Assembly (NCBI GenBank): GCA_964462335.1
Contig: CAYWYG010000001.1
Span: forward strand, 9,903-73,902
DNA length: 64,000 nt
Direction: 5' to 3'
From: an uncultured Candidatus Saccharibacteria bacterium
GTDB lineage: Bacteria; Patescibacteriota; Saccharimonadia; Saccharimonadales; Saccharimonadaceae
The number at the start of each line of letters is the position of its first letter. Within the stretch, counting starts at the first letter, position 1. The notes below the pieces were generated by a model. The model saw nothing but the letters and a program-made list of their open reading frames with translations, was not told the origin of the DNA and searched no databases. This document shows, piece after piece, positions 23,976 to 64,000 of this stretch. The position numbers and the translations under genes are program-made.

Positions 23976-24836
23976 TTAGCTTGCCAAGCGATGAAGCGCA
24001 AAGTAGGTGGTCTCAGCCGGTAACACGACAGGACTGATCACATCTCCTTTGCTTTCACGAAAAGCAACAATTCTTGGCTCCACAACTACTTTTCCTGCAA
24101 CCGTATGAAGAGCTTTCCTCGATGTATCATCTCCTGCAGAGATAGCTTGATCAATTAATGCGTTCTCATAGGCCTCTAACCCGTCAGAATCGATGGCAAA
24201 GAACGAAGATTTTACGATTTCTATTTTTCTCTTCCGCTCACCATCTGAAGCAACCACATCTGCAACCGGTCTATGCCGACGAGCAATTAGACTTCCTTGT
24301 TCGGTAGTGTCATGATCGGCACGCATAAATTTGTATCCTGTACGAGGATCAAATGGAGGATATAACTCAACTAACTGTAGGCCTGTGCCACCAAACTGTC
24401 GTGGCAAATACCTAGCCTTCTTGTCGATATCGAGACTTCCCCACAACCCATTTTGCGTTTCGTGTCCAAGCTCTACAGCGACTTCCCCCACCGTGTCTCC
24501 ATACAATGTCACTTCATCACCTATTTGAGTAGAGAGATCATGAGCAAACACGTGTATGCTGTCGCGTAATAATTTCGAAGGTGTAGTCGGCTCGTCAAAA
24601 AACGCTCTGCGACCTGCTATTCGTAAATATCGTTCATGATGCGCATGTCGGCGCTCTCGTGACTCGGCGACAGCCAAAGCTATACCATGTGCGACGTCAC
24701 TTTGTCGGTCACGATCAACATGTCCTACATGCGGCAGTATTGAGCGCGTAATATATTCGGGACGCAATACATGAGTATAGCGACCTTCATGGTCACTATG
24801 GGCAATATTCGGTATTCTATTCTGAGTCTGAGACAT
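23976..24836 (-). CDS. hypothetical protein, first gene of the thymidylate operon
   Basis: 286-aa ORF lying 9 nt upstream of folA. No motif recognised. Confidence 0.55.
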   Translation of the reverse strand: MSQTQNRIPNIAHSDHEGRYTHVLRPEYITRSILPHVGHVDRDRQSDVAHGIALAVAESRERRHAHHERYLRIAGRRAFFDEPTTPSKLLRDSIHVFAHDLSTQIGDEVTLYGDTVGEVAVELGHETQNGLWGSLDIDKKARYLPRQFGGTGLQLVELYPPFDPRTGYKFMRADHDTTEQGSLIARRHRPVADVVASDGERKRKIEIVKSSFFAIDSDGLEAYENALIDQAISAGDDTSRKALHTVAGKVVVEPRIVAFRESKGDVISPVVLPAETTYFALHRLAS

Positions 24837-32692: not shown

Positions 32693-32708
32693 CAGTTTAC
32701 AGTTTACA
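32693..32708. repeat. family-B inverted-repeat arm CAGTTTACAGTTTACA
   Basis: Its reverse complement matches 15 of 16 nt at 33092-33107. Confidence 0.6.
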
Positions 32709-32718
32709 ATTATCAAGT

Positions 32719-33069
32719 ATGGCCGAGAACTATCAATTAGAAGAGAGAACATTGCGATTTAGCGCTAGAATTATCAGGCATTGTTCAAAGTTACAACAGC
32801 CTATACTGATAGATATTATCAAACAAGTGGTTCGATCGGCGACGAGTATTGGCGCGAATTATACCGAAGCCAATAACGCTGCATCAAAAACTGACTTCAG
32901 GGCAAAAATTTTTATTGCCAAAAAAGAAGCTGCTGAAACTAAGTACTGGCTCTCATTGCTAAGTGAGCTAGGTGACACATCTGACGAACTCAAAATATTA
33001 CGACAAGAGTCACAAGAAATATTGATGATATTGCAAAAAATTATCACGACGCTTAGGAATGGTAAATGA
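32719..33069 (+). CDS. four-helix-bundle protein (23S rRNA intervening-sequence protein family)
   Basis: 116 aa with VRSATSIGANYTEANNAASKTDFRAKIFIAKKEAAETKYWLSLL, the TIGR02436/PF05635 pattern. Confidence 0.85.
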   Translation: MAENYQLEERTLRFSARIIRHCSKLQQPILIDIIKQVVRSATSIGANYTEANNAASKTDFRAKIFIAKKEAAETKYWLSLLSELGDTSDELKILRQESQEILMILQKIITTLRNGK

Positions 33070-33091
33070 AAACTGAAAACTGCGAACGTAA

Positions 33092-33107
33092 TGTAAACTG
33101 TAAACTA
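33092..33107. repeat. family-B inverted-repeat arm TGTAAACTGTAAACTA
   Basis: Partner of 32693-32708. Sits in a GAAAACT/GTAAACT heptamer array at 33066-33120. Confidence 0.6.
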
Positions 33108-57157: not shown

Positions 57158-58033
57158 TCATAGCCTCATAAGCAATCGCTGCGAACCATCAGTCAGAGCC
57201 ATGAGCGTCGCAATCGTGATCATGACCCGCGCCACGACAAAACGTTCTCGATCAAGATCCTGCGAGGGTAACGGAAATAGTGTCGCAGCAAGTTGTTTGG
57301 AACGCCAGATATCATAGCCAAATGCCTGCATGTCATCATGATCCGCGGCGAAACGATTAGAGGCAAGTGTCGTATCCGGGACGAAATTGATGATAAGTAA
57401 TACTTCTTGATGATTGCCTTCAAGCACTGAGACGCTGCCAGGCGCTTTTGACTCAAGCACATCGAGTACTTTGTCACGACCCGCAAAATAATCAGCAGAT
57501 CTACTCCTGAGGACAAGCCCTGCGCCCATGACGCGCAGGTAGTGATCACGGTTAAACTGGCCATCGAGGATCGCTTTGACCAGGCGCTTGTGATCCTCGA
57601 CAAGTTTGGGATCGGTCATACACTGCAGCACATGCTCGATACCATCGATCGCACCACACCCAACACCCTCATCGCGTTCGGTATTGTCGCGATGCCCGCC
57701 AGGCGAGAGTCCGAGACGGACGAAAGATTCGATCATAACCTCAGCATCGTTATAAAATGTACCTCGGGTGAGATCATCCTTATCTACTCCTAGACGATAG
57801 GCCAACGCCGCACCTGGCGCGCCGCCAGGAACCTGTGCTCCAAGATTGGACTCGTCGAGTGTGGGGTCATGTCGACCATCAATACACCGCGTCTTGGCAC
57901 CAGCGTGCATAGGGACGTAGTAGTTGTCGAGGTCACGTACGATAGCAGCACTATCGACAAATACGTGCTCAGCCGACACTTTGCCGGGCCATTTTTTGTC
58001 CGATAACCGTCCGAGATTGATAATCTGGCTCAT
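57158..58033 (-). CDS. hypothetical protein, last gene of the atp transcription unit
   Basis: 291 aa with RCIDGRH ... GGHRDNTERDEGVGCGAIDG, that is a CxDxR plus H...CG arrangement. No secure family assignment. Confidence 0.6.
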   Translation of the reverse strand: MSQIINLGRLSDKKWPGKVSAEHVFVDSAAIVRDLDNYYVPMHAGAKTRCIDGRHDPTLDESNLGAQVPGGAPGAALAYRLGVDKDDLTRGTFYNDAEVMIESFVRLGLSPGGHRDNTERDEGVGCGAIDGIEHVLQCMTDPKLVEDHKRLVKAILDGQFNRDHYLRVMGAGLVLRSRSADYFAGRDKVLDVLESKAPGSVSVLEGNHQEVLLIINFVPDTTLASNRFAADHDDMQAFGYDIWRSKQLAATLFPLPSQDLDRERFVVARVMITIATLMALTDGSQRLLMRL

Positions 58034-58050: not shown

Positions 58051-58317
58051 TTATGCCGCTTTATGTTCTAGTTTTCGCAATCTACCGTCATGATCATCAA
58101 GACGTACATCATGATGCTGCAAGGATTCGCCAACTGCGTTCAAAATCTCGTCGAGTTTTTCGTCTTGCTCGTCGAGGCGAGATTTCACTTCGGCTATGTC
58201 AGATTTCACTTCGGCTATGTTCGACGACGTCGCCATATCTTCAAGCTGCAACGTAAGCTGCTGACTAATCGTAGCCTCGATAAATTGTTTGAGATCGGCG
58301 ATGTCATCTGATGTCAT
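58051..58317 (-). CDS. 88-aa coiled-coil protein with an internal 7-aa duplication
   Basis: NIAEVKS-DIAEVKS is encoded by a 21-nt tandem duplication (58180-58200 and 58201-58221, 20 of 21 identical). Lies 15 nt downstream of atpC. Confidence 0.55.
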   Translation of the reverse strand: MTSDDIADLKQFIEATISQQLTLQLEDMATSSNIAEVKSDIAEVKSRLDEQDEKLDEILNAVGESLQHHDVRLDDHDGRLRKLEHKAA

Positions 58318-58332
58318 AGTACTACTATACTC

Positions 58333-58752
58333 CTAGCGTTTACGACGACGCAAGCCAGCCACTTTGAGCCGGACGGCGTGACGGTCGATCTCCGCCTTGG
58401 CTTTTTCGAGCTCGGCAAGGTCTCTGACACTCTCGCGCAGCTTCGTCGCGCGGTCGAGGGCGGCGCGAGCCTCCTCTTCGATAATATCATCAGCCGTATC
58501 AGCTTCGTCGACAAGGATACGGATGCGAGTCGGGCTAACTTCGACCATACCTCCATAGGTTGCAAAATGCTCCATCTGGTCATCTGAGTCGCCTTTTTTG
58601 TCGCGAATCGAGATGACACCGTTGACGGCAAGTGTGACGATACGCTCGTGGCCCGGCATGACCGCGATCACGCCATCAGATGTTGGGATAAGTACCTCGT
58701 AGACATCGTCGTCAACTTTGACACCATCGAGGGTGATAAGCTCGAGTTTCAT
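58333..58752 (-). CDS. atpC: F1 ATP synthase subunit epsilon
   Basis: 139 aa with an N-terminal beta-sandwich (LELITLDGVKVDDDVYEVLIPTSDGVIAVMPGH) and a helical C-terminus. Confidence 0.9.
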   Translation of the reverse strand: MKLELITLDGVKVDDDVYEVLIPTSDGVIAVMPGHERIVTLAVNGVISIRDKKGDSDDQMEHFATYGGMVEVSPTRIRILVDEADTADDIIEEEARAALDRATKLRESVRDLAELEKAKAEIDRHAVRLKVAGLRRRKR

Positions 58753-58787
58753 AGCGTATCTCCTTTGGAGATGTGAGGCATGAGAAA

Positions 58788-58801
58788 TGAGGCATGAGTC
58801 A
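58788..58801. repeat. family-C inverted-repeat arm TGAGGCATGAGTCA; contains the four-helix-bundle stop codon
   Basis: Exact reverse complement of 59181-59194. Sits in an ATGAGGC/ATGAG array at 58773-58805. Confidence 0.7.
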
Positions 58802-59188
58802 TGAGCGAGAACTCCTTTGTTTGGTTGCGCGGATAAGACCTGTTAATATTTTGTGTACCTTAATCGATTGCGTACTTACTAATTTAAAATCATCTAGGAT
58901 CATATAGCCCACATCACGACTTATCATCAAATGACTTTGGAGTTCTGTAAGTGAGCCAAGAGACATCGTGTAAAAGTGTTCACGATCAGCAGATGTTTTA
59001 CGACTAAATCCTTCGGCAATATTCGCGCTCACAGATGTGGCAGCTCTTCTAATTTGCGAGGTCAGCGCAAACGTTTCTTCTTTGGGGAAATGCTTGGTAG
59101 CTTTATATATCATGACGGCAAGAGCGTGAGCTTCACGCCATGCATCTAAATCAGTAAACGATTTTATAGTTTCTGCCTCCTGACTCAT
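58799..59188 (-). CDS. four-helix-bundle protein (23S rRNA intervening-sequence protein family)
   Basis: 129 aa with FTDLDAWREAHALAVMIYKATKHFPKEETFALTSQIRRAATSVSANIAEGFSR, the textbook PF05635/TIGR02436 signature. Confidence 0.9.
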   Translation of the reverse strand: MSQEAETIKSFTDLDAWREAHALAVMIYKATKHFPKEETFALTSQIRRAATSVSANIAEGFSRKTSADREHFYTMSLGSLTELQSHLMISRDVGYMILDDFKLVSTQSIKVHKILTGLIRATKQRSSRS

Positions 59189-59194
59189 GCCTCA
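59181..59194. repeat. family-C inverted-repeat arm TGACTCATGCCTCA; contains the four-helix-bundle start codon
   Basis: Exact reverse complement of 58788-58801. Confidence 0.7.
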
Positions 59195-59212
59195 TAACTC
59201 CTGATATACATA

Positions 59213-60905
<1,693 letters not shown>

Positions 60906-60909
<4 letters not shown>

Positions 60910-61772
60910 TTCATCGCCTCCACGCCAGCGCTGATCTCAGATAATTCCTGTGTGATTGCGCTTTGGCGAACTTTGTTCATCTCGAGCGTCAGGTCATCGA
61001 TCAGATCGGTCGCGTTATCCGTCGCGTTTTTCATCGCCATGCGGCGCATGCTGTGCTCGGACGCTTTGGCATCGAGAACGGCCTGGTAGAGCTGTGATTC
61101 GAGCAGGCGAATCACCGCGCCTTCAAGCACTTCCTCGAGGCTCGGCTCAAAGTACGACTGCTGGATATCACGCGATACCTCAGTTGTCTCAAATGACGCG
61201 GGTAGCAGCGGGATGGTCGCTGCAGTCTGCGTGAAGCTATTGACGAACTCCGTCGTGATGATCGAGACTTCATCGACTATTCCGTCAATATAACGATCGA
61301 CCGCGGCCACGAGGATCGGGCGCATATCGGCAGCCGTCAGGTTCTCAGGCAGACCGGCGTAGACACCAGTGACTTCGAGGTCTTTGATCTTTGCGGCAAA
61401 CTGCGCGCCCTTTTTGCCCACCGCGAGCACTTCGGTTTTCACCCCATTTTTGCGATCTGCCTCGAGGAGTGCAATGAGCTGTTTGATGGCATTGGCGTTG
61501 AATGACCCGGCGAGGCCGCGATCACTGGTGATGATGATCGCAAGGCGTGCTTTTACAGGGCGCTGTTTGAAAAATACTGAGCCTTGGACGTCGAGCTTTT
61601 GGCCGAGTTGTGTCAATATTTCACGCGCTGCAGCAGAGTAGGGCAAAGACGCTTTGGTCGCATCCTGGGCACGTCGAAGCTTGCTCGCCGCGACGAGCTC
61701 CATCGCCTTAGTGATCTGTTTGTTGGATTTGACAGATCGGATACGGCTCTTAAGCTGACGCGTACTAGCCAT
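60906..61772 (-). CDS. atpG: F1 ATP synthase subunit gamma
   Basis: 288 aa with [36 protein letters not shown] and C-terminal ITQELSEI. Confidence 0.9.
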
Positions 61773-61980
61773 TATTCTCCCCTATGCCTATCATATTGCG
61801 TAGCATTGTACGCACTCGCGCATCCAACTCATCTTTTGGCATATCAGGATGTGCAGATACGAGATCAACGATCAAAGCAGATGTTAGTGCGATATCTCTT
61901 TCAATTCTATCTCGCTCATTTGCAGCAGCCCATGCTTGCCCCTCGGGAGTCCCCCGAAAACCGTCGTCATCAATACTCAT
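61765..61980 (-). CDS. 71-aa acidic hypothetical protein inserted between atpA and atpG
   Basis: ATGA overlap with the atpA stop (61977-61980) and an 8-nt overlap with the atpG start. Confidence 0.55.
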
Positions 61981-63500
61981 GAACGAAACCCTTTCATGAC
62001 CTTCTCGGCGGCTTTTTCGATGAGAGCTATCATCTTGTCATCAGGCTTGTCGCCTTTGTTTAGTTCGGCCATGTCTTTTTTGTGGTCGCTCCCGAGAGCG
62101 GTGAGCAGGGCGTCGCGGGCATCGTTGACTTTTTCGATCGGTACGTCGTCAAAATGACCTTTGTCAGCGACGAGCAAGACAGCCGTCTGCTCCCAGACGC
62201 TTTTCGGCTGGTACTGCGGCTGCTTGAGCAGCTCTGTCAGGCGAACACCACGGTTCAGACGAGCCTGTGTGTCTTTGTCGAGATCGCTTCCGAACTGCGC
62301 AAATGCCGCCAGTTCGCGGTACTGCGCGAGACTAAGGCGAAGGTTACCCGAAACTGATTTGACCGCTTTGGTCTGGGCCGAACCACCGACACGCGAGACC
62401 GAGAGACCGACCGAGATAGCCGGGCGGATACCCTGATAAAACAGATCGGTTTCGAGGAAGATTTGACCATCGGTGATCGAGATGACATTGGTCGGGATGT
62501 AGGCAGAGATATCGCCCGCCTGCGTCTCGATGATAGGGAGTGCCGTCAGGCTACCTCCACCGAGATCATCGCTCAGTTTGGCAGCACGCTCCAGCAAGCG
62601 AGAGTGAAGATAAAAGACATCGCCTGGGTATGCCTCGCGACCTGGTGGACGGCGGAGCAGAAGTGACATCTGGCGGTAGGCGGCGGCGTGCTTGGTCAGG
62701 TCGTCATGGATGATGAGCGCGTGCTCGCTGTTGTCACGGAAATATTCACCCATGGCGGTACCGGCATACGGCGCGAGATAGAGCAGCGACGCTGGGTCAC
62801 TCGGGCCAGTCGCAACGACGATCGTCTGATCCATGACGCCTTCTTGCTCAAGACGGTCGACGAGGCGAGCGATCTTGCTCAGTTTTTGACCGATCGCGAC
62901 ATAGACGTTGACGACGCCCGTCTTTTGGCGACCTTGGTTGATCATGGTATCGAGTGCGATCGCGGTCTTACCAGTCTGGCGGTCACCGATGATCAGCTCA
63001 CGCTGCCCACGGCCGATCGGCACCATCGTGTCGATGGCGAGCAAGCCTGTCATCAGTGGTTCGGCTACCTTTTTGCGGCCCATCACGCCGATTGCTGGGC
63101 GCTCGATACGGCCAGTTGCTTTCGCCTTGATCGCGCCTTTGCCATCAAGCGGACGACCGAGCGGATCGACCACGCGGCCGAGTAGTTCGCGTCCGACAGG
63201 TACTTCGAGAACTTTGCCGGTACGCGAGACGCTGTCGCCAGCTTTCACTAGTGTATCGTCGCCGAGAAGTACCGCGCCGATCTCGTCTTCCATGAGGTTG
63301 AGCACGAATGCTTCCACGCCGCCGTGTGCCGTTTCGATAGTCACGACTTCGGCGTAGCCTGCCGAACTGAGGCCGTAAATCCACGCGACACCGTCGCCAA
63401 TACGCGTCACGACGCCTGATTGTTTCATGTCGGCCGTCGTCTGCAAGTTGGCGATCGCGCCGGCCAGTTCTTTACTCAGTGTTGCAACATCTATACTCAT
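61977..63500 (-). CDS. atpA: F1 ATP synthase subunit alpha
   Basis: GDRQTGKTA Walker A. 507 aa. Confidence 0.97.
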
Positions 63501-63509
63501 ATATCTCCT

Positions 63510-63878
63510 TTAGCTTGTCCTAAGTAGCTTTAGCTGCGTCCGCAGCGACGCGTCGAGCAATGTCTCGGGCGTTTTGATGATAATCCCACCGATCAGGTCG
63601 GCGTCGATGTGTTCACGAAGGGTCGTCGCAGCACCACCAACAGATGAGATAATGCGCTCACGCATCGACTCATCTATCGGCCGCGCGGTCGTCACATCGA
63701 TGATCACCGTACCGCGACGAGCCAGCGCCGCCTCGAGATCCGCGAGATAGCGGTCAGCCTGACTTGTCAATTTGTGGTCGACGAGATAGGCAGCGAGCTG
63801 CTGCATGACCTCACTCGTCGACTCGCCATCGACAAGGCGCTGAGCGAGATGATCAGTGACGCGGCGGCGACTCAGCAT
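63510..63878 (-). CDS. atpH: F1 ATP synthase subunit delta (OSCP), short form of 122 aa
   Basis: The track ORF was shortened to the Met lying 1 nt after the atpF stop. C-terminal IGGIIIKTPETLLDASLRTQL is delta-like. About 55 aa shorter than E. coli delta. Confidence 0.75.
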   Translation of the reverse strand: MLSRRRVTDHLAQRLVDGESTSEVMQQLAAYLVDHKLTSQADRYLADLEAALARRGTVIIDVTTARPIDESMRERIISSVGGAATTLREHIDADLIGGIIIKTPETLLDASLRTQLKLLRTS

Positions 63879-63879
63879 A

Positions 63880-64000
63880 CTACTTCGCCTCCTTGAGTGC
63901 TGCCTCGATAAGACGTTTGTCGGTCGCGCTGTCCATCTTTTCGCGCAAAATCTTCTCGGTCGCATCAGTCACAAGACCAAGCATCTCACGACGAAGTGCG
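63880..64000 (-). CDS. atpF: Fo ATP synthase subunit b, C-terminal 39 codons; gene continues beyond the window
   Basis: Reverse translation reads ...ALRREMLGLVTDATEKILREKMDSATDKRLIEAALKEAK*. Helical and charged, immediately upstream of atpH. Confidence 0.6.
   Translation of the reverse strand, partial: ALRREMLGLVTDATEKILREKMDSATDKRLIEAALKEAK

What the first reader, a model, noticed from the sequence alone, without database searches (positions are those of the whole stretch)
61765..61980. Second intra-operon insert: a 71-aa acidic ORF coupled between atpA and atpG
The ORF start overlaps the atpA stop (ATGA at 61977-61980), and its 3' end overlaps the atpG start by 8 nt.

The sequence is [71 protein letters not shown].

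The F1 cluster here also carries orf106, the four-helix-bundle cassette and a short (122-aa) delta subunit. That makes three non-canonical genes inside atpA-G-D-C plus two more after atpC, which is highly atypical for this conserved operon.
Basis: partly seen in the sequence, partly recalled or inferred. Interest (0 to 1): 0.65.

Follow-up and report, generated by a model that had tools for sequence, protein, structure and literature searches.

The report
Orphan small gene inside ATP-synthase operon
A real but lineage-restricted 71-residue acidic protein gene sits, translationally coupled, between the alpha and gamma genes of the ATP synthase of a soil Saccharibacterium. It is one example of a phylum-wide habit of unrelated small genes lodging at the junctions of this otherwise very conserved operon.

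Summary
A 71-aa ORF (61765-61980, minus strand) starts on the atpA stop (ATGA) and ends 8 nt into atpG.

It is a genuine gene:
- Exactly four orthologous sequences exist in about 15 billion proteins.
- All four sit in the same slot with the same overlaps.
- pN is below pS (dN/dS about 0.2-0.3).
- AlphaFold predicts a two-helix hairpin (pLDDT 84).
- Its last codons encode the atpG Shine-Dalgarno and start.

No Pfam, NCBIfam, PADLOC, PHROG, PDB or fold match was found.

It is dispensable. Sister lineages have a tight atpA/atpG junction, an unrelated orphan ORF, or a 94-nt stem-loop in its place. It does not co-occur with orf106, so a toxin-antitoxin or immunity pair is not supported.

The wider context is that in 80 Saccharibacteria species the three F1 junctions carry inserts:
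- alpha|gamma: 22 of 76
- gamma|beta: 38 of 77
- beta|epsilon: 12 of 74
- F0/stalk junctions (control): 0-1 of 43-68

The inserts are about 58 unrelated families. They are mostly orphans, mostly acidic, low in GC3, on the same strand and tightly coupled.

Best reading: orf71 is an accessory protein embedded in the operon at a junction hotspot, and it is not a core subunit. Its biochemical function is unknown.

The parts
61977..63500 (-). atpA (F1 alpha, 507 aa); its TGA stop overlaps the orf71 ATG
   Evidence: ORF list. PF00006 and PF00306 on the identical gene in L001. 95% identity to L011 atpA.
61765..61980 (-). orf71: 71-aa acidic orphan protein gene
   Evidence: for the ORF. Four-member family, always in this slot. 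dN/dS 0.18-0.29. No family hit.
61977..61980 (-). ATGA stop/start overlap (termination-reinitiation site). Only a weak, distant SD-like AAAGGG lies upstream, inside the atpA codons for MKGF
   Evidence: Sequence. The same ATGA is present in L016, L091 and L094.
61852..61947 (-). Codons for predicted helix 1 (residues 12-43), containing the invariant I-V-D-L motif
   Evidence: AlphaFold2 model, pLDDT 88-96 in this stretch. Invariant columns.
61777..61836 (-). Codons for predicted helix 2 (residues 49-68), which follows the conserved P-x-x-P-K/R-D-E/Q-L-D-A turn
61777..61782 (-). GGGGAG Shine-Dalgarno for atpG, embedded in orf71 codons Gly67-Glu68. This explains the conserved C-terminal G-E-N-N-G
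   Evidence: Sequence.
61765..61772 (-). 8-nt overlap ATGGCTAG (atpG start plus orf71 stop)
   Evidence: The same +8 ending occurs in 14 of 21 unrelated slot ORFs.
60906..61772 (-). atpG (F1 gamma, 288 aa)
   Evidence: PF00231 and TIGR01146, full length from residue 1.
60589..60909 (-). orf106: second junction ORF (gamma|beta slot), orphan, low GC3
   Evidence: Its only homologue is in the distant L025, in the same slot.
58779..59203 (-). Third junction insert (beta|epsilon slot): PF05635 four-helix-bundle gene (58799-59188) bracketed by 33-nt inverted repeats
   Evidence: Pfam E=5.8e-34. Inverted repeats 58779-58811 and 59171-59203, which pair in the predicted mRNA fold.

Best explanation
orf71 is a genuine protein-coding gene for a small, cytoplasmic, acidic two-helix hairpin protein. 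It is confined to one clade of soil Saccharimonadales.

How it is expressed (inferred from the sequence anatomy):
- It has no promoter or strong ribosome-binding site of its own.
- Ribosomes finishing atpA restart at the overlapping ATGA.
- The last six codons of orf71 carry the Shine-Dalgarno (GGGGAG) and the ATG of atpG, so ribosomes are passed on to gamma.
- The gene takes over the alpha-to-gamma coupling point that is a direct TAATG overlap in insert-free relatives, and it rebuilds that coupling point at its own 3' end.

Its history (shown by comparison):
- It was gained once in the ancestor of the clade and inherited vertically.
- It evolves 2-4 times faster than gamma, but under purifying selection.
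- It has been lost or replaced in sister lineages, so it is dispensable and is not a core ATP-synthase subunit.

Its setting (shown by comparison): it occupies one of three insertion-permissive junctions of the F1 gene cluster (alpha|gamma, gamma|beta, beta|epsilon). Across Saccharibacteria these junctions hold dozens of unrelated, mostly orphan, mostly acidic, low-GC3, same-strand, tightly coupled ORFs.

What the protein most likely does (inferred):
- It is an accessory protein-binding hairpin whose dosage is tied to the highly expressed atp operon.
- It either arose in situ or has diverged beyond recognition.
- Its partner is unknown.
For: Real gene:
- Four orthologues, all between atpA and atpG with ATGA and the 8-nt overlap.
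- pN 0.23-0.43 against pS 0.65-0.94; dN/dS 0.18-0.29 where it can be measured, compared with 0.07-0.10 for atpG.
- 24 invariant columns, concentrated in the two predicted helices.
- AlphaFold2 gives a hairpin with mean pLDDT 84.

Coupling anatomy:
-.
- No promoter-like site upstream on the minus strand.

Vertical descent and dispensability:
- The atpG tree places the window, L091, L094 and L016 in one clade. In that same clade L013 has a tight junction, L011 has an unrelated ORF136 and L012 has a 94-bp stem-loop.
- The four-way distance comparison for orf71 gives the same grouping as the atpG tree.
- Alpha and gamma of relatives that lack orf71 are 95% and 83-86% identical to the window's, with the same alpha C-terminus and (L011, L013) the same gamma N-terminus.

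Hotspot:
- Gap sizes are bimodal. Inserts are present in 22 of 76, 38 of 77 and 12 of 74 F1 junctions, against 0 of 68, 1 of 68 and 1 of 43 control junctions.
- 74 junction ORFs fall into 58 clusters.
- Only 6 of 69 have a Pfam domain.
- 60 of 69 have lower GC3 than atpG. orf71 is 0.375 against 0.65.
- 21 of 21 alpha|gamma gaps are open on the sense strand.
- ORF starts lie within -4 to +3 nt of the atpA stop in 20 of 21 cases, and 14 of 21 end at +8.

Orphan status:
- No other homologue among 1.84 billion representatives or 5.8 billion clusters, in IMG/VR, or in JGI metagenome contigs.
Against: - No direct evidence that the protein is made.
- Synonymous sites are saturated, so dN/dS values are rough.
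- Only four sequences support the alignment and the AlphaFold model.
- The position between alpha and gamma, together with the acidic bias of the ORFs flanking atpG (49 of 59 with pI below 6, against 15 of 59 background genes), could instead point to a function connected with F1.
- How inserts enter a junction that has no non-coding DNA is unexplained. orf71 has no flanking repeats.
- The 80 comparison loci are one genome per species, and most are MAGs, so some junctions could be affected by assembly errors.
Confidence: 0.6

Rival explanations
1. orf71 is a lineage-specific modulator or assembly helper of F1. For example, it could be an acidic hairpin that shields the very basic N-terminal helix of gamma before it enters the alpha3beta3 ring, or an inhibitor in the style of the epsilon C-terminal domain, IF1 or the zeta subunit.
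For: - It is encoded between alpha and gamma and translated in step with them.
- It has a two-helix hairpin fold, like the epsilon C-terminal domain.
- Unrelated ORFs in the two slots flanking atpG are overwhelmingly small and acidic, whereas ORFs in the beta|epsilon slot are not.
- It is under purifying selection.
Against: - It is absent from close relatives whose alpha and gamma are 95% and 83-86% identical, with the same alpha C-terminus and (L011, L013) the same gamma N-terminus.
- The same slots also hold enzymes with no link to the ATP synthase: NUDIX, histidine phosphatase and nucleoside deoxyribosyltransferase.
- No similarity to any known F-ATPase subunit or inhibitor in Pfam, NCBIfam or the PDB.
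- Known inhibitory helices that dock near the acidic beta DELSEED loop are basic, whereas orf71 is acidic (from general knowledge of those inhibitors).
Confidence: 0.2
2. orf71 is a functionless spacer ORF. DNA that became lodged between atpA and atpG is kept free of stop codons only so that ribosomes stay coupled from alpha to gamma, and the peptide merely has to be harmless.
For: - All 21 alpha|gamma inserts are open on the sense strand and tightly overlapped.
- Most are singleton orphans.
- GC3 is low.
- An acidic, hydrophilic composition is what a harmless peptide would be expected to have.
- Turnover among close relatives is rapid.
Against: - 24 of 71 columns are invariant across four lineages whose synonymous sites are saturated, including a defined IVDL...PxxPxDxLDA..R..LR core.
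- The hairpin is predicted with confidence.
- L012 shows that the junction can function with a non-coding stem-loop plus its own Shine-Dalgarno, so an open frame is not obligatory.
Confidence: 0.12
3. orf71 is a decayed remnant of a mobile four-helix-bundle (PF05635, rRNA-intervening-sequence type) cassette, like the one between atpD and atpC.
For: - PF05635 cassettes with terminal inverted repeats do insert into operon junctions in this genome.
- There is a weak local resemblance of '[15 protein letters not shown]' to the 'IYKATKHFPKEE' region of PF05635 proteins.
Against: - hhalign probability is only 6.5%.
- hmmsearch E-value is about 0.1 in a database of 160 sequences.
- No Pfam hit.
- No flanking inverted repeats.
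Confidence: 0.04
4. orf71 and orf106 form a toxin-antitoxin or immunity pair.
For: Both are small, acidic, unannotated and in the same operon.
Against: - They are not adjacent.
- They co-occur in only one of four orf71 lineages, and orf106's only homologue is in a species without orf71.
- No PADLOC, Pfam or NCBIfam hit for either.
Confidence: 0.02
5. The ORF is an annotation artefact: a chance open frame, a mis-set atpG start, or a structured RNA spacer.
For: A mirror ORF of the same length exists on the plus strand at 61784-61999.
Against: - atpG cannot start upstream.
- The frame, start overlap and stop overlap are conserved in four lineages, with pN below pS.
- The RNA fold z-score is +1.2 and there is no Rfam hit.
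- The antisense frame is not kept in L016.
Confidence: 0.02

Closest known systems
Chromosomal hotspots of accessory-gene integration flanked by core genes
   Same: One interval between two conserved core genes holds different, unrelated accessory genes in related genomes. Turnover is rapid and the accessory genes are more AT-rich than the core genes.
   Different: - The interval lies inside an essential, co-translated operon.
- The cargo is usually a single tiny orphan ORF with no non-coding flanks, integrase or repeats.
- It is welded to its neighbours by overlapping stop and start codons.
Phage 'morons' (extra genes inserted between conserved genes of a co-linear module)
   Same: An add-on gene sits between two genes of a conserved module. 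It is compositionally distinct and is absent from close relatives.
   Different: - Morons are defined as having their own promoter and terminator and lie in prophages.
- orf71 has neither, depends on read-through translation from atpA, and has no phage relatives.
Small helical F-ATPase regulators (epsilon C-terminal hairpin, mitochondrial IF1, alphaproteobacterial zeta, cyanobacterial AtpTheta)
   Same: A small, largely helical protein. In this case it is also encoded within the F1 gene cluster.
   Different: - No sequence or fold match.
- It is acidic.
- It is dispensable in near relatives with almost identical F1.
- Binding to F1 is untested.
PF05635 / TIGR02436 four-helix-bundle 'rRNA intervening sequence' cassettes
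   Same: They occupy neighbouring operon junctions in the same genome (atpD|atpC and ybaB|recR) and are also low in GC3.
   Different: Those cassettes have terminal inverted repeats and short non-coding flanks. orf71 has neither, and the profile comparison fails.

Membership tests
Type II toxin-antitoxin or immunity pair | Two adjacent genes that are inherited together | tested here: not met
   orf71 and orf106 are separated by atpG and co-occur only in the window. L016 and L094 have orf71 relatives without orf106, and L025 has orf106 without orf71.
Type II toxin-antitoxin or immunity pair | A recognisable toxin, antitoxin or defence domain | tested here: not met
   No Pfam, NCBIfam or PADLOC hit at E<=0.1.
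Known F-type ATPase subunits and regulators (alpha-epsilon, a, b, c, AtpI/AtpZ, zeta/DUF1476, IF1) | Sequence match to the family model | tested here: not met
   No Pfam or NCBIfam hit at E<=0.1. No PDB sequence hit better than E=0.008, and that hit is to an unrelated ABC ATPase.
Known F-type ATPase subunits and regulators | Physical association with F1 and an effect on ATPase activity | not testable with these tools
   Needs biochemistry or multimer modelling. Indirect evidence against: the gene is absent from relatives whose alpha is 95% identical.
PF05635 four-helix-bundle (23S rRNA IVS protein / Avd-like) cassette | HMM or profile match to PF05635 | tested here: not met
   No Pfam hit. hhalign probability 6.5%.
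PF05635 four-helix-bundle cassette | Terminal inverted repeats bracketing the ORF | tested here: not met
   None around orf71. They are present around the two true PF05635 genes.
Integron gene cassette | An attC-type imperfect inverted repeat in non-coding DNA at the 3' end of the cassette | tested here: not met
   There is no intergenic DNA, because the ORF overlaps both neighbours. No inverted repeats were found.
Phage moron | Own promoter and terminator, in a prophage context | tested here: not met
   No promoter-like or terminator-like site on the minus strand near orf71. No PHROG, IMG/VR or BFVD relatives.
Translationally coupled overlapping cistrons (ATGA type) | The start codon overlaps the upstream stop, and the downstream start lies within the ORF's 3' end and is preceded by a Shine-Dalgarno | tested here: met
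   ATGA at 61977-61980, GGGGAG at 61777-61782, and the 8-nt overlap. All three are conserved in four lineages.
Core-gene-flanked accessory-gene hotspot | The same interval between two core genes holds unrelated genes in related genomes | tested here: met
   23 alpha|gamma ORFs fall into 19 clusters. Gap sizes are bimodal. Control junctions are cold.

The most novel reading that the evidence does not exclude
The three F1 junctions (alpha|gamma, gamma|beta, beta|epsilon) of Saccharibacteria form a dedicated gene nursery or expression platform.

- DNA that lands there is forced into an open, translationally coupled frame by selection on ATP-synthase stoichiometry. This would continually generate new small acidic proteins, some of which (such as orf71) become fixed and come under purifying selection.
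- Alternatively, the acidic proteins flanking atpG could be a convergent class of lineage-specific partners of gamma or F1.

Either reading would be a previously undescribed way for ultra-small genomes to create and express new genes.
Probability: 0.25. Interest if true: 0.75.

Novelty: new variant of a known kind. Interest (0 to 1): 0.5.

Why it matters
The atp operon is one of the most conserved gene arrays in bacteria, and Saccharibacteria have tiny, streamlined genomes.

- Finding that up to half of their species (at the busiest junction) tolerate unrelated orphan ORFs welded by overlapping stop and start codons into the F1 gene cluster is unexpected.
- At least one of these ORFs, orf71, is kept under purifying selection.
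- This gives a concrete and abundant natural system for three questions. How do new small proteins arise and become fixed? How is translational coupling rebuilt after an insertion? Do CPR bacteria tune their ATP synthase with lineage-specific partners?
- On its own, orf71 is a modest result: a real hypothetical protein of unknown function.

Tried and rejected
Family searches that found nothing for orf71:
- Pfam, NCBIfam, PADLOC and PHROGs.
- Rfam on the whole window found only two tRNAs.

Homology searches:
- The exhaustive HMMER search gave two long 'hits', P0004 and P0006. These are repeat-driven false positives from a DGDG-repeat protein and an ARM-repeat kinase.
- A PDB sequence search, and Foldseek against the PDB and BFVD, gave no match better than Foldseek E=1 (PDB sequence hits E>=0.008, unrelated). 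A helical hairpin is too generic a fold.
- Scans of IMG/VR and the JGI metagenome contigs with the family profile found nothing.

Origin hypotheses tested:
- Derivation from a PF05635 four-helix-bundle protein: hhalign probability 6.5%.
- Homology between orf71 and the other alpha|gamma slot ORFs, including ORF136 of L011: hmmsearch --max found nothing significant. ORF136 is itself a singleton orphan.
- A donor sequence or paralogue inside the 64-kb window: blastn and tblastx found none.

Structural features looked for:
- Flanking direct or inverted repeats around orf71: none.
- RNA structure in the orf71 region: z-score +1.2.

Other:
- My first attempt at a dN/dS comparison for the atpA C-terminus used a mis-set frame and should be ignored (third block).
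- Literature searches found no description of junction ORFs in Saccharibacteria atp operons. A 2014 survey of atp loci (PMC4154653) reports splits at the IA|IG, IG|IB and IB|IE junctions in other phyla. My term search of that paper turned up no mention of CPR bacteria or small inserted ORFs.

Full report
**1. The observation**

On the minus strand the window carries this gene order:
- atpH: 63510-63965 as the longest ORF; gene callers give 122 aa
- atpA: 61977-63500
- orf71: 61765-61980
- atpG: 60906-61772
- orf106: 60589-60909
- atpD: 59213-60592
- a PF05635 four-helix-bundle gene: 58799-59188
- atpC: 58333-58752
- orf88: 58051-58317
- orf291: 57158-58033

orf71 has exactly the quoted sequence. 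Its ATG overlaps the atpA TGA (ATGA, 61977-61980). Its TAG lies in atpG codons 2-3 (ATGGCTAG, an 8-nt overlap). atpG cannot start further upstream, because 61772 is the first start codon after the in-frame stop and the gamma models align from residue 1. The protein is acidic, with pI 4.47 and net charge -6.

**2. Is it a gene?**

The organism is a Saccharimonadales bacterium (Saccharibacteria/TM7).

*Family size*
- A word-indexed search of 5.8 billion protein clusters found only the protein itself.
- An exhaustive HMMER scan of 1.84 billion representatives, followed by a profile search, found exactly four real family members. They are the window protein, P0002 (L016, annotated 'hypothetical protein'), P0003 and P0005.
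- Two long hits from the HMMER scan are repeat artefacts.

*Position*
- All four members lie between atpA and atpG, with the same ATGA start and the same 8-nt overlap.

*Selection*
- Nei-Gojobori counts give pN 0.23-0.43 against pS 0.65-0.94.
- dN/dS is 0.18-0.29 where dS can be computed, compared with 0.07-0.10 for atpG.
- dN is 2-4 times that of atpG.

*Conservation and structure*
- 24 of 71 columns are invariant. They are concentrated in IVDL and P-x-x-P-[KR]-D-x-L-D-A-x-x-R-x-x-L-R.
- AlphaFold2 on the four-sequence alignment gives a helical hairpin: helix 12-43, turn HPDMP, helix 49-68, mean pLDDT 84.
- The region shows no excess RNA structure (z = +1.2) and has no Rfam hit.

I conclude that it is a real, fast-evolving protein-coding gene.

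**3. How it is wired**

- Upstream of the orf71 ATG there is only a distant AAAGGG, within the atpA codons for M-K-G-F. Translation therefore most likely depends on termination-reinitiation at ATGA. This is an inference from the sequence.
- The conserved C-terminus G-E-N-N-G is the atpG ribosome-binding site read as protein: GGG GAG AAT AAT GGC TAG equals SD GGGGAG, a 4-nt spacer, ATG and then GCTAG.
- In insert-free relatives (L013, L014) the atpA stop overlaps the atpG start directly, as TAATG. orf71 therefore sits exactly on the alpha-to-gamma coupling point and re-creates it at its own 3' end.
- No promoter-like or terminator-like site on the minus strand accompanies it. No repeats flank it.

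**4. History**

An atpG neighbour-joining tree places these lineages in one clade: L016, L013, and the window with L011, L012, L091 and L094. The state of the alpha|gamma slot in each is:

| Lineage | alpha\|gamma slot |
|---|---|
| window, L091, L094, L016 | orf71 family |
| L013 | tight junction |
| L011 (alpha 95%, gamma 86% identical to the window) | unrelated 136-aa ORF, itself a singleton orphan |
| L012 | 94-nt insert that folds into a heptamer-repeat stem-loop, -38 kcal/mol, z = -3.9 |

- The four-way distance comparison for orf71 gives the same split as atpG, so the data fit a single gain followed by vertical descent with losses or replacements.
- The gene is therefore dispensable.
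- Relatives that lack it have the same alpha C-terminus, and L011 and L013 the same gamma N-terminus. This argues against an obligatory role in F1.

**5. The wider pattern**

I located the atp genes by tblastn in 80 species-representative loci and measured the gaps between them. Gap sizes are bimodal: either 6 bp or less, or roughly 170-1060 bp. Inserts of at least 150 bp occur as follows.

| Junction | Loci with an insert of at least 150 bp |
|---|---|
| atpA>atpG | 22 of 76 |
| atpG>atpD | 38 of 77 |
| atpD>atpC | 12 of 74 |
| atpF>atpH (control) | 0 of 68 |
| atpH>atpA (control) | 1 of 68 |
| atpE>atpF (control) | 1 of 43 |

*Properties of the inserts*
- At atpA>atpG, all 21 usable gaps are stop-free on the sense strand over at least 90% of their length. 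The figure is 5.5% for shuffles and 6 of 21 for the antisense strand.
- 20 of 21 ORFs start within -4 to +3 nt of the atpA stop, and 14 of 21 end exactly 8 nt into atpG.
- 74 junction ORFs fall into 58 BLASTP clusters, of which 50 are singletons.
- Of 69 ORFs scanned, six had Pfam domains: three PF05635, one His_Phos_1, one NUDIX and one Nuc_deoxyrib_tr.
- 60 of 69 have lower GC3 than the adjacent atpG, with a mean difference of -0.12.
- In the window, orf71 (0.375), orf106 (0.374) and the four-helix-bundle gene (0.338) contrast with 0.61-0.66 for the atp genes and about 0.45-0.65 for typical genes.

*Turnover among close relatives*
- In oral Nanosynbacter genomes with near-identical atpG, the gamma|beta junction is either empty (14 bp) or holds one of at least four different cargos. 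The first codons of atpD differ between the empty alleles and the occupied alleles.

*An unexplained regularity*
- ORFs in the two slots flanking atpG are mostly acidic: 20 of 23 and 29 of 36 have pI below 6.
- Only 15 of 59 background genes in the window are that acidic.
- ORFs in the beta|epsilon slot are mostly basic.

**6. What orf71 is not**

- *A toxin-antitoxin or immunity pair with orf106.* The two co-occur only in the window, and neither has a defence-system or toxin domain.
- *A known F-ATPase subunit or inhibitor.* There is no family, PDB or fold match.
- *A decayed PF05635 cassette.* hhalign probability is 6.5% and there are no inverted repeats.
- *Phage-derived.* No support from PHROGs, IMG/VR or BFVD.
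- *A duplication of sequence within the window.* None found.

**7. Best explanation and its limits**

*Shown*
- It is a conserved, selected, translationally coupled small gene.
- It is restricted to one lineage and is dispensable.
- It sits in a phylum-wide junction hotspot.

*Inferred*
- It is translated by reinitiation.
- It is an accessory protein-binding hairpin whose dosage follows the atp operon.
- It arose in situ or has diverged beyond recognition, since no homologue exists elsewhere among about 15 billion proteins.

*Probabilities*
- About 0.6 that it is an F1-independent accessory protein or a fixed proto-gene.
- About 0.2 that it is a partner of F1 or gamma.
- About 0.12 that it is only a spacer frame.
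- The remainder goes to the minor rivals.

*Unexplained*
- How DNA enters a junction that has no non-coding sequence is unexplained. The conserved atpA and atpD genes could serve as homology arms for exchange between lineages, but that is conjecture.

**8. Novelty**

- The orf71 family is new and unannotated.
- Literature searches found no description of junction ORFs in Saccharibacteria atp operons.
- A 2014 survey (PMC4154653) reports that atp loci are broken at the IA|IG, IG|IB and IB|IE junctions in other phyla. My term search of that paper turned up no mention of CPR bacteria or of small inserted ORFs.
- I classify the finding as a new variant of a known kind: an accessory-gene hotspot combined with coupled overlapping cistrons.
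- Interest for orf71 alone is moderate. The phylum-wide pattern is the more interesting result.

Noticed in passing
window 58779-58811 and 59171-59203 (flanking the gene at 58799-59188): The PF05635 four-helix-bundle gene between atpD and atpC is bracketed by 33-nt inverted repeats that are 82% complementary. The repeats pair as a long closing stem in the predicted mRNA fold (z = -2.9). This resembles the excisable stems of rRNA intervening sequences and suggests a mobile, possibly RNase III-processed cassette.
   Followed up: partly
window 32694-33106 (gene at 32719-33069): A second low-GC3 PF05635 gene (E=5.9e-17) sits between ybaB and recR. It is flanked by perfect 15-nt inverted repeats built from tandem heptamers (AGTTTACAGTTTACA / TGTAAACTGTAAACT). 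This is the same architecture in a second conserved gene pair.
   Followed up: partly
L012:4907-5000: In a close relative the atpA>atpG slot holds no sizeable ORF (only a 33-codon frame). It holds a 94-nt element made of heptamer repeats that folds into a strong stem-loop (-38 kcal/mol, z = -3.9), followed by a hairpin over the atpG Shine-Dalgarno. It may be an ORF-less relative of the inverted-repeat cassettes.
   Followed up: partly
window 60589-60909; L025:6073-6393: The only homologue of orf106 among the 86 loci beyond the window's own species (49% identity) is in a distant species (atpG 55% identical), in the same slot directly upstream of atpD. L094, which carries an orf71 relative, has two different orphan ORFs there (101 and 61 aa).
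   Followed up: partly
L011-L090, junction ORFs: Unrelated ORFs in the alpha|gamma and gamma|beta slots are overwhelmingly acidic (49 of 59 with pI below 6). Only 15 of 59 background genes in the window are, and ORFs in the beta|epsilon slot are mostly basic (four-helix-bundle and membrane proteins). No explanation so far.
   Followed up: partly
L058-L089 (Nanosynbacter and oral TM7), atpG>atpD junction: Genomes with near-identical atpG differ at this junction. Some have an empty 14-bp junction. Others carry one of several cargos: a 126-aa nucleoside-deoxyribosyltransferase-like protein, a 169-aa protein clustering by BLASTP with L071's histidine phosphatase, a 151-aa membrane protein, or a histidine phosphatase plus a NUDIX protein. 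Empty alleles start atpD with ATGGCAAAAGAT. Occupied alleles start it with ATGAGTAAAACA, which creates the upstream ORF's TAA.
   Followed up: partly
window 63488-63500 compared with 61968-61980: atpA and orf71 begin with almost the same 13 nt (ATGAGTATAGATG and ATGAGTATTGATG; both proteins start M-S-I-D). The upstream sequences are unrelated, so this is probably coincidence.
   Followed up: no
window 63510-63965: The delta subunit is short. Gene callers give 122 aa, and it matches only positions 55-170 of the 172-position OSCP model, so most of the N-terminal domain that normally binds alpha appears to be missing. Relatives align only from about residue 30 of the 151-aa ORF.
   Followed up: no
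window 58051-58317 and 57158-58033: orf88, a coiled-coil protein directly after atpC, is conserved in at least seven other species (35-75% identity). orf291 has a sub-threshold match to the cadmium carbonic anhydrase repeat (PF18484, E=6e-5, 23 bits against a cut-off of 29). It follows the operon in four relatives at 68-82% identity.
   Followed up: no
L045:2883-4408: atpA appears to be split in this MAG. Residues 2-310 are in one frame, and the C-terminal 226 aa form a separate ORF. This is a frameshift, a pseudogene or an assembly error.
   Followed up: no
window 23976-24836: A 286-aa ORF with unusually low GC3 (0.36) and no Pfam hit. It is another candidate for a foreign or accessory gene.
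   Followed up: no
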